Assembly: GCF_040807025.1 (NCBI RefSeq)
Contig: NC_090973.1
Location: forward strand, 935,107 to 981,852
From: Struthio camelus
Taxonomy: Eukaryota
DNA length: 46,746 nucleotides
Reading direction: 5' to 3'
Position numbers and translations under genes: made by a program. Positions 33,560 through 35,417 of the stretch are shown here, piece by piece. The notes below the pieces were generated by a model, which searched no databases, had not been told where the DNA came from, and saw nothing but the letters and a program-made list of their open reading frames with translations. Each line of letters opens with the position of its first letter. Within the stretch, counting starts at the first letter, position 1.

Positions 33560-35197
33560 GGGACACGGGTCACGCGGTGACATGGAGGACACGAGGACAT
33601 GGGTGTCCTACCTGCGTTGCTCCCGACCCCCAAGGTGTCCCCAAGGTGTCCCCAAGCCCGTCCCAACTCACGGAGGCCATGGGGAAGCCGATGAGCGCCA
33701 CGGTGGCCACCATGAGCACGTGCTTGCCACGGTGGTGGCCCTCCGCCGTCCCACATCCTCAAGATGTCCCCGTGTCCCCAAACCGTCTTGGTGTCCCCAA
33801 GATGTCCCCACCCACCCGCAGTCATGGTGGCCACAGGGAAGCGGACGAGCACCGTGGTGGCCACCGTGAGCACGTCCTTGCCGTGGTGGTGGCCCCCCAT
33901 CCCCACGTCCCCAAGAGATTCTTCCATCCCTGAGCCATCGTTGGGTCCCCAAGATGTCCCCAACCCCTGTCCCCACTCATGGCAGCCAAAAGGACGCAGA
34001 CAAGCACCATGGTGGCCACCGTGAGCACGTCCTTGCCATGGTGGTGGCCCCCCATCCCCAAGACCAGGGGTCCCCCAGGGGTTGGTGTCCCCAACCCCTG
34101 TCCACACTCATAGTGGCCACGGGGAAGCAGACGAGCACCATGGTGGCCACCATGAGAACATCCCTGCCAAGGTGGTGGCCCCCCATGCCACGTCCCCACG
34201 AGGTTCCTCCACCCCTGAGCCACCCCCCCCATCCCCATGCCTGTCCCCGCGCCCCGTCCCCACTCACGGCGGCCACGGGCAAGCAGACGAGCACCATGGT
34301 GGCCACCATGAGAACATCCCTGCCAAGGTGGTGGCCCCCCATGCCACGTCCCCACGAGGTTCCTCCACCCCTGAGCCACCTCCCCATCCCCATGCCTGTC
34401 CCCGCGCCCCGTCCCCACTCACGGCGGCCACAGGGAAGCAGACGAGCACCATGGTGGCCACCATGAGAACATCCCTGCCAAGGTGGTGGCCCCCCATGCC
34501 ACGTCCCCACGAGGTTCCTCCACCCCTGAGCCACCCCCCCATCCCCATGCCTGTCCCCGCGCCCCGTCCTCACTCACGGCGGCCACGGGGAAGCAGACGA
34601 GCACCATGGTGGCCACCATGAGAACATCCCTGCCAAGGTGGTGGCCCCCCATGCCACGTCCCCACGAGGTTCCTCCACCCCTGAGCCACCCCCCCATCCC
34701 CATGCCTGTCCCCGCGCCCCGTCCCCACTCACGGCGGCCACGGGGAAGCAGACGAGCACCATGGTGGCCACCATGAGAACATCCCTGCCAAGGTGGTGGC
34801 CCCCCATGCCACGTCCCCATGAGGTTCCTCCACCCCTGAGCCACCTCCCCATCCCCATGTCTGTCCCCGCGCCCCGTCCCCACTCACGGCGGCCACGGGG
34901 AAGCAGACGAGCACCATGGTGGCCACCATGAGAACATCCCTGCCAAGGTGGTGGCCCCCCATGCCACGTCCCCACGAGGTTCCTCCACCCCTGAGCCACC
35001 CCCCCATCCCCATGCCTGTCCCCGCGCCCCGTCCCCACTCACGGCGGCCACGGGCAAGCAGACGAGCACCATGGTGGCCACCATGAGAACATCCCTGCCA
35101 AGGTGGTGGCCCCCCATGCCACGTCCCCACGAGGTTCCTCCACCCCTGAGCCACCCCCCCATCCCCATGCCTGTCCCCGCGCCCCGTCCTCACTCAC
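33560..35197 (-). repeat. About 10 tandem copies (about 155 bp each; 6 near-identical and 4 diverged) of the 3' end of TLCD3B exon 3 plus its splice donor, filling TLCD3B intron 3
   Basis: Plus-strand ctcactcacggcggccacggggaagcagacgagcaccatggtggccaccatgag (minus strand: ..MVATMVLVCFPVAAV|GTGAGTGAG) recurs at 34264, 34419, 34574, 34729, 34884 and 35039. Diverged copies lie at about 33665, 33825, 33975 and 34110. The true exon end is at 35198. Confidence 0.9.
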
Positions 35198-35417
35198 GGC
35201 GGCCACGGGGAAGCAGACGAGCACCATGGCGGCGTGGTGGAGCACCATGAGCAGGTCCTTGCGGAGGTAGGCGGCGGTGGCGGCCCGCAGCGAGGGCGGT
35301 GGCCCGGCCTCGTGGCCCTTGACGCGACCCCGGTGCCAGTGGCAGAGGAACATGGCGTAGACGTCGTAGATGAAGTAGGGCACCGCGAACTCCGGGTAGG
35401 CGCCCGCCAGCCAGTGC
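35198..35417 (-). CDS. TLCD3B: TLCD3B coding exon 3 (Q)HWLAGAYPEFAVPYFIYDVYAMFLCHWHRGRVKGHEAGPPPSLRAATAAYLRKDLLMVLHHAAMVLVCFPVAA
   Basis: Minus-strand acceptor ccggcgcag|G. Matches human HWLSSAYTQFAVPYFIYDIYAMFLCHWHKHQVKGH...YLHKEFLMVLHHAAMVLVCFPLSVV, including the TLC-domain HH motif. Donor gccgcc|GTGAGTGAGG, phase 0. Confidence 0.85.

What the first reader, a model, noticed from the sequence alone, without database searches (positions are those of the whole stretch)
33560..35417. The same architecture recurs independently in TLCD3B: about 10 copies of the exon-3 3' end plus donor fill the downstream intron
On the minus strand, exon 3 ends ..HHAAMVLVCFPVAA|GTGAGTGAGG at 35198. The intron just downstream in transcription order (35197 down to 33560) consists of about 155-bp units. 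Each re-encodes ..MVATMVLVCFPVAAV followed by GTGAGTGAG. There are 6 near-identical copies and 4 diverged ones. Two unrelated genes on opposite strands show the same exon-tail-plus-donor amplification into the 3'-flanking intron. This points to a locus-wide or genome-wide mechanism, such as replication slippage or unequal exchange seeded at exon/intron junctions, or selection for donor arrays. It is unlikely to be a coincidence.
Basis: seen in the sequence. Interest (0 to 1): 0.8.

Follow-up and report, generated by a model that had tools for sequence, protein, structure and literature searches.

The report
Exon-edge copies filling a bird intron
A 155-bp piece spanning the end of TLCD3B exon 3 and its splice donor has been copied ten times in tandem into the next intron; this is real, but it is an instance of the recently described "exon stuttering" of repeat-swollen bird dot-chromosome genes, and this array is old and shared across birds.

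Summary
On the minus strand, TLCD3B exon 3 (35417-35198) ends ...CFPVAA|GTGAGT. Intron 3 (35197-33534) holds ten ~155-bp units. Each is ~85 nt of intron start followed by ~70 nt of exon-3 tail. Seven units are 97-100% alike and three are 70-81%. Six young units and the last old unit keep a donor identical to the real one. Three have decayed to AT.

The window is 76% tandem repeat. Only 2 of 21 exons (TLCD3B exon 3, MVP exon 2) have copies in the adjacent intron. This matches "sequence/exon stuttering", published for chicken dot chromosomes (Hron et al. 2026).

The TLCD3B array did not arise independently in this genome. Orthologous units sit in the same intron of crane, falcon, swan, chicken and tinamou, and they share unit-specific substitutions absent from every exon. 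A skink has a 141-nt, repeat-free intron.

So an ancient tandem duplication across the junction has been turned over by unequal exchange and conversion. It is tolerated because the first donor is used, as in the human F7 IVS7 minisatellite. Decoy use would give premature stop codons. Nothing supports selection for donor arrays. This is a new member of a known kind, and the evidence for its great age is new.

The parts
35198..35417 (-). TLCD3B exon 3 (220 nt). Its last ~77 nt are the source of the exon-like half of the repeat unit, and its last ~31-35 nt are in register with the array.
   Evidence: translation HWLAGAY...VLVCFPVAA, AG acceptor, GT donor. (TLCD3B orthologues). (the junction CFPVA[A/T]|[10 protein letters not shown] is conserved in birds, skink and primate). 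TRF array boundary at 35233.
35192..35197 (-). Authentic 5' splice site GTGAGT of intron 3 (context gcc|GTGAGTGA). It is also the first base of unit U1.
34112..35197 (-). Young block: units U1-U7 (155-156 bp each, 96.8-100% identical). Each is ~87 nt of intron start followed by ~68 nt of exon-3 tail encoding ..DVLMVATMVLVCFPVAA. U1-U6 end in decoy donors gcc|GTGAGTG identical to the real one. U7 ends in act|ATGAGT.
33672..34111 (-). Old block: units U8-U10 (131, 155, 154 bp; 70-82% identical to the others). Donors are ATGAGT, ATGACT and GTGAGT.
33534..33671 (-). Terminal partial unit (the first ~25 nt, GTGAGTTGGGACGGGCTTGGGGACA, are homologous to unit starts) followed by the unique pyrimidine-rich 3' end of the intron and its acceptor. 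At 138 nt it is about the size of the whole intron in a skink (141 nt), so it is probably the remainder of the ancestral short intron.
33438..33533 (-). TLCD3B exon 4 (96 nt, [10 protein letters not shown]...VLIL), the acceptor partner of the authentic donor.
5898..6093 (+). MVP exon 2. Its last 82 nt (6012-6093, [27 protein letters not shown]) are the source of the second exon-derived array.
6094..10074 (+). MVP intron-2 array: 25 units of 146-176 bp. Each is the donor GTACCTA, then (CCCCTATAG)n, then a spacer, then the 82-nt exon tail at 94-100% identity. All 26 donors (CAGCAG|GTACCTA) are identical.

Best explanation
This is an 'exon-stuttering' minisatellite.

Origin. In an ancestor of living birds, a ~155-bp segment straddling the exon 3/intron 3 boundary of TLCD3B was duplicated in tandem. 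The segment held about 75 nt of exon tail, the GT donor and about 80 nt of intron. At that time the intron was short, about 140 nt.

Turnover. The locus lies in extremely GC-rich, G4-dense, tandem-repeat-saturated DNA of the avian dot-chromosome type. There the array has repeatedly expanded, contracted and homogenised by replication slippage, unequal exchange and gene conversion. In the window species the latest round produced seven near-identical units next to the exon, and older units decay distally.

Tolerance. The array does not alter the mRNA, because it starts inside the exon and extends only downstream. The spliceosome uses the first donor, the one contiguous with the rest of exon 3 and its upstream acceptor. 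This fits exon definition or 5'-to-3' 'first-come' selection, as shown experimentally for the boundary-spanning F7 IVS7 minisatellite. Decoy donors are silent or give NMD-prone transcripts. With time they are lost by CpG decay.

MVP intron 2 shows the same process acting separately on a neighbouring gene.

Shown here: the architecture, the unit homology to the exon, the age gradient, orthology across birds, absence in a squamate, species-specific homogenisation, and the coding consequences of decoy use.
Inferred: the molecular mechanism of expansion, and which donor is actually spliced.
For: Architecture. The units are in register with the authentic junction, and the array ends in a partial unit followed by unique intron sequence.

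Identity gradient. U1-U7 are 97-100% alike and U8-U10 70-82%.

Background. 76% of the window is tandem repeat at 68.7% GC. G4 motifs occur at ~10 per kb, and most of the TLCD3B units carry one (8 motifs in the intron).

Rarity of exon capture. Only 2 of 21 exons have intronic copies above the shuffled control.

Orthology. A profile built from the window's units finds units spanning both the intron-like and exon-like halves in intron 3 of crane (5-6), swan (7-10), falcon (2) and tinamou (4). Chicken has 2 exact tail copies. 14 of 80 columns hold unit-specific bases shared by at least 3 species and absent from all five exons. Several of these are transversions: columns 136, 157, 155, 145, 140 and 184.

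Concerted evolution. All 10 window units lack the same 9 nt. All 4 tinamou units lack the same ~29 nt. Four of 7 swan units lack 4 nt.

Outgroup. The skink intron 3 is ~141 nt with no copies, and tandem repeats cover 0.9% of the locus.

Donor decay. GT has become AT in 3 of the 4 oldest units, at a CpG.

Consequences of decoy use. Decoy 1 adds 155 nt (frameshift). Decoys 2 and beyond include an in-frame stop. All MVP decoys meet a TAG within 10 codons.

Functional junction. All annotated orthologues join the authentic exon-3 end to exon 4.

Literature. Exon stuttering copies exon edges with donor or acceptor sites into adjacent introns, mostly on chicken dot chromosomes (PMC12954441). In F7 IVS7 only the most upstream of 5-9 identical donors is used (PMC1557585).
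Against: No transcript data were available, so use of the first donor is inferred from protein conservation and from the F7 analogy.

The chromosomal location is inferred, not seen. ALDOA is the neighbour of TLCD3B in crane and falcon, and ALDOA lies on chicken dot chromosome 38 according to PMC12954441.

In old units the exon-like half is better conserved than the intron-like half (84-85% against 60-78%). That could hint at constraint rather than conversion or alignment effects.

The persistence of this array in all six birds is longer than the 'evolutionarily recent' picture given for stuttering in chicken. The window's other TLCD3B intron arrays are shared with at most one or two of the other species.

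The comparison assemblies are of mixed quality. The tinamou loci contain N gaps.
Confidence: 0.85

Rival explanations
1. The donor array is functional and maintained by selection. Tandem U1-binding decoy donors, or the G4-rich units, might help expression of this very GC-rich gene. They could suppress premature cleavage and polyadenylation, aid splicing of a repeat-swollen intron, or act as a regulated unproductive-splicing switch.
For: An exon-derived array is present in TLCD3B intron 3 in all six birds examined, whereas the window's other TLCD3B intron arrays are shared with at most one or two of the other species. The exon-like half of old units is better conserved than the intron-like half. 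Six decoys here, and 25 in MVP, keep donors identical to the authentic one.
Against: Donors are not conserved. Three of the 4 oldest units here have AT. Most crane units and 3 of 4 tinamou units lack the GT altogether. Copy number, unit length and indels differ in every species, from 2 units in falcon to 10 here. Every decoy leads to a frameshift or stop. High identity of the young units is explained by recent amplification. Persistence can be explained by repeated conversion or re-seeding from the conserved exon copy.
Confidence: 0.06
2. One reading: exon/intron junctions themselves seed amplification, and the arrays arose independently and recently in each gene and lineage through a junction-specific mechanism.
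For: Two unrelated genes on opposite strands show the same donor-side architecture with the same modal 155-bp period. In chicken, more than 90% of exon-copy sources lie within 1 base of the exon border.
Against: Copies adjoining the border are what any duplication straddling the boundary produces. Duplications internal to an exon, or covering a whole exon, would alter the mRNA and be removed by selection. 17 of 19 introns carry arrays without exon sequence. Acceptor-side copies exist in chicken and tinamou for the same genes. The TLCD3B units are orthologous across birds. MVP units range from 146 to 176 bp, so the shared 155 looks coincidental.
Confidence: 0.07
3. Assembly artefact: a long-read assembler spuriously expanded or mis-joined a short repeat.
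For: Arrays of near-identical 155-bp units in 69% GC DNA are hard to assemble, so the exact copy number could be wrong.
Against: The units carry distinct single-base variants and an orderly age gradient. The same array type is present in five independently assembled species. The chicken study checked such arrays against raw nanopore reads.
Confidence: 0.02

Closest known systems
Avian dot-chromosome 'sequence stuttering' and 'exon stuttering' (Hron et al., Genome Biol Evol 2026, PMC12954441; preprint 2025)
   Same: The introns are almost wholly made of locally expanded tandem blocks of tens to hundreds of bp. In a minority of introns the block includes the lateral part of the adjacent exon with its splice donor or acceptor, leaving the exon itself intact. 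The published ranges cover both arrays here: exon part 20-187 bp (median 36), 1-44 copies, span 112-23,555 bp. The locus is GC-rich and G4-rich, and it neighbours ALDOA, a chicken chr38 dot-chromosome gene.
   Different: That work is on chicken. TLCD3B/FAM57B and MVP are not named in its text or in the supplements held here. The authors stress recent, individual-level variation and independent expansion in each species. Here the exon-derived unit of TLCD3B intron 3 is orthologous across palaeognath, galloanserine and neoavian birds, so the seed is ancient and only the latest amplification is recent.
Human F7 intron 7 37-bp VNTR spanning the exon 7/IVS7 boundary (Borensztajn et al., PLoS Genet 2006, PMC1557585)
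   Same: The first repeat element contains the exon-intron junction, so the authentic donor is followed by several identical pseudo-donors. All of them are competent, but only the most upstream one is used.
   Different: The F7 unit is 37 bp with 5-9 copies, in a mammal, as an isolated locus. Here the units are ~155 bp, with 6-7 intact decoys in TLCD3B and 25 in MVP, set in a region where every intron is repeat-filled. Donor choice has not been measured here.
Classical minisatellite or tandem-array concerted evolution by unequal crossing-over and gene conversion
   Same: There are species-specific diagnostic indels in all units of a species. A young homogenised block lies next to decayed edge units. 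Copy number differs between species.
   Different: One end of the array is anchored in a coding exon under purifying selection. That exon can act as a permanent template, and it limits where exchanges are tolerated.

Membership tests
Exon stuttering (Hron et al. 2026) | [quoted passage not shown] | tested here: met
   There are 10 direct copies of the exon-3 tail in intron 3 and 25 copies of the MVP exon-2 tail in intron 2.
Exon stuttering (Hron et al. 2026) | The source sequence lies at the exon border (within 1 base) and the copied block includes the splice site and some intron | tested here: met
   The source ends at 35198, the last exon base. The units include the GTGAGT donor plus ~87 nt of intron.
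Exon stuttering (Hron et al. 2026) | blastn-short exon-to-proximal-intron hits of at least 20 nt scoring above the shuffled-intron control (42.1 bits in the paper) | tested here: met
   Hits score 56-64 bits (TLCD3B) and 123-163 bits (MVP). The shuffled maximum here is 34.2 bits.
Exon stuttering (Hron et al. 2026) | The host intron and its neighbourhood are heavily covered by simple or tandem repeats | tested here: met
   TRF covers 76% of the window. Arrays are present in essentially every intron.
Exon stuttering (Hron et al. 2026) | Location on an avian dot chromosome | tested here: inconclusive
   The window's origin is not given. TLCD3B neighbours ALDOA in crane and falcon, and ALDOA is on chicken dot chromosome 38 according to the paper. 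The 68.7% GC and the repeat load fit.
Exon stuttering (Hron et al. 2026) | Extensive intron-length polymorphism among individuals | not testable with these tools
   Only one haplotype is available.
F7 IVS7-type boundary-spanning minisatellite with silent pseudo-donors | The first repeat element spans the exon-intron boundary, and the pseudo-donors are identical to the authentic donor | tested here: met
   The TRF array runs to 35233, inside exon 3. Six decoys share gcc|GTGAGTG with the authentic site. All 26 MVP donors are identical.
F7 IVS7-type boundary-spanning minisatellite with silent pseudo-donors | Only the most upstream donor is used in vivo | not testable with these tools
   There are no RNA data. 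Indirectly, only the first donor preserves the conserved CFPVA[A/T]|[10 protein letters not shown] junction, and every decoy gives a frameshift or stop.
TLCD3B/FAM57B (TLC-domain ceramide synthase) gene identity | TLC domain and orthology to vertebrate TLCD3B | tested here: met
   The best hits are bird 'ceramide synthase'/FAM57B at E = 2e-145 and 86% identity, with Pfam PF03798.

The most novel reading that the evidence does not exclude
The exon-anchored array is more than tolerated debris. It is a long-lived structure (over 100 million years, present in every bird examined), continually refreshed from the conserved exon copy. On this reading its tandem U1-binding decoy donors and G4 units are kept because they help transcription or splicing of an extremely GC-rich, repeat-swollen dot-chromosome gene. 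With 7 and 26 identical donors in a row, these loci would also be the most extreme natural test of how vertebrate spliceosomes pick the first of many equal 5' splice sites.
Probability: 0.07. Interest if true: 0.7.

Novelty: new member of a known kind. Interest (0 to 1): 0.3.

Why it matters
The pattern itself is no longer new. It is an example of the exon stuttering reported for chicken dot chromosomes, so it does not by itself reveal an unknown mechanism.

Three points still have value.

(1) Age. The exon-derived unit of TLCD3B intron 3 is orthologous across palaeognath, galloanserine and neoavian birds and is absent in a skink. At least some stuttering arrays were therefore seeded before the crown-bird radiation and have persisted through concerted evolution. 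That qualifies the published impression that such expansions are recent and independent in each species.

(2) Splicing. Arrays of 7 (TLCD3B) and 26 (MVP) identical donors are natural, extreme versions of the F7 IVS7 model for 5' splice-site choice. Any decoy use is predicted to be unproductive.

(3) Annotation. These arrays are traps for gene annotation and for short-read assembly. The tinamou assembly breaks into an N gap exactly at the MVP array.

Tried and rejected
- Look-ups that failed. Exact-protein look-ups for duck, zebra finch and alligator TLCD3B returned nothing. The nearest outgroup obtained was therefore a skink, not a crocodilian or turtle.

- Gull MVP. The gull 'MVP-like' locus (L006) was fetched to test conservation of the MVP array. 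The gene looks degenerate and showed no exon-2 tail copies, so it was not informative.

- Cassette exons. I considered that each TLCD3B unit might be a cassette exon (ttggcag|GG...GCC|gtgagt, 52 nt). I rejected this as a productive isoform: 52 is not a multiple of 3, and the 20 nt upstream are only about half pyrimidine, unlike the real acceptors (read directly).

- The shared 155-bp period. I considered that it pointed to a common mechanism or a nucleosome-length unit. MVP units range from 146 to 176 bp in 9-nt steps, so I treat it as coincidence.

- Conversion from the exon. I considered using the GCC/ACC (Ala/Thr) difference at the exon end to show conversion from the exon into the young units. 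The site is a CpG, so parallel decay cannot be excluded, and I did not rely on it.

- Gene names in the chicken paper. A search of the paper and the supplements held here for TLCD3B, FAM57B and MVP found nothing. Fig. S5 with the gene list may not be held as text.
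Full report
**What is in the window.** The 46.7-kb window is 68.7% GC, has no Ns, and is 76% covered by Tandem Repeats Finder arrays (arrays listed). Two vertebrate genes are present.
- MVP (major vault protein) lies on the plus strand, with about 16 exons between 1135 and 29390.
- TLCD3B/FAM57B lies on the minus strand with five exons: exon 1 from the ATG at 39493, exon 2 at about 37118-37032, exon 3 at 35417-35198, exon 4 at 33533-33438, and exon 5 at 32387-32127.

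A database search confirms both. TLCD3B matches bird 'ceramide synthase'/FAM57B proteins at up to 86-92% identity with Pfam PF03798. MVP matches bird MVP at 83%. No species matches exactly. At the nucleotide level the exons are closest to the tinamou Nothoprocta (89.8%) and about 87-88% identical to swan, crane and falcon. Essentially every intron of both genes is filled with its own minisatellite-like array.

**Checking the observation.** Exon 3 ends GTGGCCGCC|GTGAGTGAGG at 35198. Intron 3 (35197-33534, 1664 nt) contains ten further copies of the exon tail, spaced 155, 155, 155, 155, 155, 155, 156, 131, 155 and 154 nt apart.

Each unit has two halves. The first is about 87 nt homologous to the start of the intron (GTGAGTGGGGACGGGGCGCGGGGACAGG...). 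The second is about 68 nt homologous to the last ~77 nt of the exon (...GCAAGGAC.TGCTCATGGTG[9-nt gap]GCCACCATGGTGCTCGTCTGCTTCCCCGTGGCCGCC).

Units U1-U7 are 96.8-100% identical to one another, and U8-U10 are 70-82%. The last 31 nt of the exon tail are 93.5-100% identical in the young units. The whole alignable tail is 81-84% identical plus the 9-nt in-frame deletion.

The array ends with a partial unit that runs into the unique pyrimidine-rich 3' end of the intron. Six copies carry gcc|GTGAGTG, identical to the authentic donor. U7, U8 and U9 have ATGAGT, ATGAGT and ATGACT, a G-to-A change at the CpG formed by the last exon base and the donor G. U10 keeps GTGAGT.

**Is it more than chance, and how common is it here?** I repeated, inside the window, the exon-versus-intron blastn-short screen used in the chicken study. 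Shuffled sequence never exceeded 34.2 bits. TLCD3B exon 3 gives seven hits of 56-64 bits, and MVP exon 2 gives 25 hits of 123-163 bits. The other 19 exons give none. So 2 of 19 introns have exon-derived arrays, both on the donor side. The other 17 are filled with arrays of purely intronic sequence.

The MVP array (6094-10074) consists of 25 units of 146-176 bp. Each holds the donor GTACCTA, a variable (CCCCTATAG)n tract, a spacer and the 82-nt exon tail. All 26 donors are identical. The modal 155-bp period shared with TLCD3B looks coincidental, because MVP units vary in 9-nt steps.

**Comparative evidence.** I fetched the TLCD3B locus from five other birds and one squamate. Every bird has copies of the exon-3 tail in intron 3.

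| Species | Intron 3 length | Exon-tail copies |
|---|---|---|
| Crane (Balearica) | 960 nt | 5-6 diverged units |
| Falcon | 428 nt | 2 |
| Swan | 1231 nt | 7-10 |
| Tinamou | ~770 nt | 4 |
| Chicken | 4.9 kb | 2 exact 46-nt copies about 950 bp apart |

A profile built only from the window's units aligns across both halves of the unit, and across the junction between them, in crane, swan, falcon and tinamou. The duplication breakpoint is therefore shared.

In a joint alignment, 14 of 80 exon-like columns carry a base that is the majority state in the units of at least three species yet occurs in none of the five exons. These include transversions such as C-to-G in five species (column 136) and in four species (column 157). 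That is the signature of descent from one ancestral unit that had already diverged from the exon, not of independent re-copying in each lineage.

Each species also has its own diagnostic indels. All ten units here lack the same 9 nt, all four tinamou units lack the same ~29 nt, and four of seven swan units lack 4 nt. That is concerted evolution or array turnover.

In the skink Tiliqua, intron 3 is only about 141 nt, has no exon copies, and the locus is 0.9% tandem repeat. The 138-nt terminal segment of the window's intron is about that size. The simplest history is a short ancestral intron that was inflated in the bird lineage by tandem duplication of a junction-spanning segment.

The window's other TLCD3B intron arrays are not broadly shared in this way. 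The intron-2 array matches the orthologous intron best in the tinamou (with only a weak hit in falcon), intron 1 gives a low-identity match to the orthologous intron in falcon, and the intron-4 array matches the orthologous intron of no species.

For MVP, the tinamou has the same GTACCTATAG(CCCCTATAG)n-plus-exon-tail restart in intron 2, immediately followed by a 1.9-kb N gap.

**Both kinds of exon edge get copied.** In the other birds the same two genes show acceptor-side copies as well.
- Chicken TLCD3B has two extra exon-5 heads and one exon-3 head.
- Tinamou TLCD3B has an extra exon-5 head and three copies of the CDS 3' end.
- Tinamou MVP has an extra exon-1 tail, exon-4 tail and exon-5 head.

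The donor-only pattern in this window therefore rests on two events and does not indicate a donor-specific process.

**Consequences for the mRNA.** Splicing from the first TLCD3B decoy would add 155 nt and shift the frame. Later decoys include an in-frame stop in the second unit. Every MVP decoy meets a TAG within ten codons of the exon end. Only the authentic donor preserves the junction ...CFPVA[A/T]|[10 protein letters not shown]..., which is invariant in annotated proteins from birds, skink and primate. Whether decoys are actually used could not be tested.

**Comparison with what is known.** Hron et al. (Genome Biol Evol 2026, PMC12954441) describe this phenomenon in the complete chicken genome.
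- Dot-chromosome introns are filled with locally expanded blocks, which they call 'sequence stuttering'.
[quoted passage not shown] They call this 'exon stuttering'.
- The exon parts are 20-187 bp long, with 1-44 copies.
- They suggest G4- or replication-stress-driven repair, or meiotic conversion, as mechanisms.
- They regard the expansions as recent and independent between species.

The window fits every sequence-level criterion (see the membership table). G4 motifs are very dense, about 10 per kb. There are 8 on the coding strand of TLCD3B intron 3 and 70 on the template strand of MVP intron 2. TLCD3B neighbours ALDOA in crane and falcon, and ALDOA is on chicken dot chromosome 38. TLCD3B and MVP are not named in that paper's text or in the supplements held here.

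The best mechanistic analogue for tolerance is the human F7 intron-7 minisatellite. Its first 37-bp element spans the exon-intron boundary, and only the most upstream of 5-9 identical, competent donors is used (PMC1557585).

**Verdict.** It is wrong on independence, on junction seeding and on selection for donors.

The best-supported explanation is an ancient junction-spanning tandem duplication that behaves as a minisatellite in dot-chromosome-type DNA. It has recently re-expanded in this species, and it is harmless because the first donor is chosen. Old decoys decay by CpG mutation.

This is a new instance of an already published kind. The added element is the evidence that such an array can be orthologous across crown birds. 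Interest is modest.

Noticed in passing
window 32420-33430 (-), 35435-36126 (-), 44954-46743 (+), 30053: The 13-mer CCGGACGCCTGGG (up to 1 mismatch) occurs 84 times against 0.58 expected. It is embedded in arrays of different periods (56, 20, 49-59 and 37 bp) in TLCD3B introns 4 and 2, and in inverted orientation beyond the gene. So one core motif is shared by arrays in different introns, which is not the strictly local pattern described for stuttering.
   Followed up: partly
window 6094-10074 (+): The MVP intron 2 array has 25 copies of the 82-nt exon-2 tail plus an identical, rather weak-looking donor (CAGCAG|GTACCTA). Unit lengths of 146-176 bp are set by a variable (CCCCTATAG)n tract. The tinamou has the same unit type followed by an assembly gap.
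   Followed up: partly
whole window: G-quadruplex motifs are extremely dense, about 10 per kb (155 on the plus strand, 313 on the minus strand). The strand bias differs between introns (TLCD3B intron 3 GC skew +0.26 on the coding strand, MVP intron 2 -0.32).
   Followed up: no
L004 (chicken) 2048-2136, 12645-12737, 15177-15257; L005 (tinamou) 6800-6835, 7250-7780: TLCD3B in other birds has acceptor-side and 3'-end exon-fragment copies. Chicken has extra exon-3 and exon-5 heads. Tinamou has an extra exon-5 head and three copies of the last ~20 codons downstream of the stop.
   Followed up: partly
L007 (tinamou MVP) 80-133 and 242-295, ~4585-4632, 5164-5199: Tinamou MVP has duplicated exon-1 tail plus donor, exon-4 tail and exon-5 head. 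So at least four MVP exon edges stutter in that species, whereas only exon 2 does in the window.
   Followed up: no
L006 (black-headed gull 'MVP-like'): This gull MVP-like gene is only 53% identical in exon 2 and shows many Arg-to-Trp-type changes. It may be a decaying copy or paralogue. No exon-2 tail copies were seen.
   Followed up: no
L008 (skink Tiliqua) 5025-5170: The skink TLCD3B intron 3 is only ~141 nt and repeat-free, and the whole locus is 0.9% tandem repeat. This gives a likely ancestral state for the intron.
   Followed up: yes
window exons versus L001-L005: The source species is not among the database hits. Its TLCD3B exons are closest to the tinamou (89.8%), and its non-exonic intron-2 array matches best in the tinamou. 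This hints that the window comes from a palaeognath or a slowly evolving lineage.
   Followed up: partly
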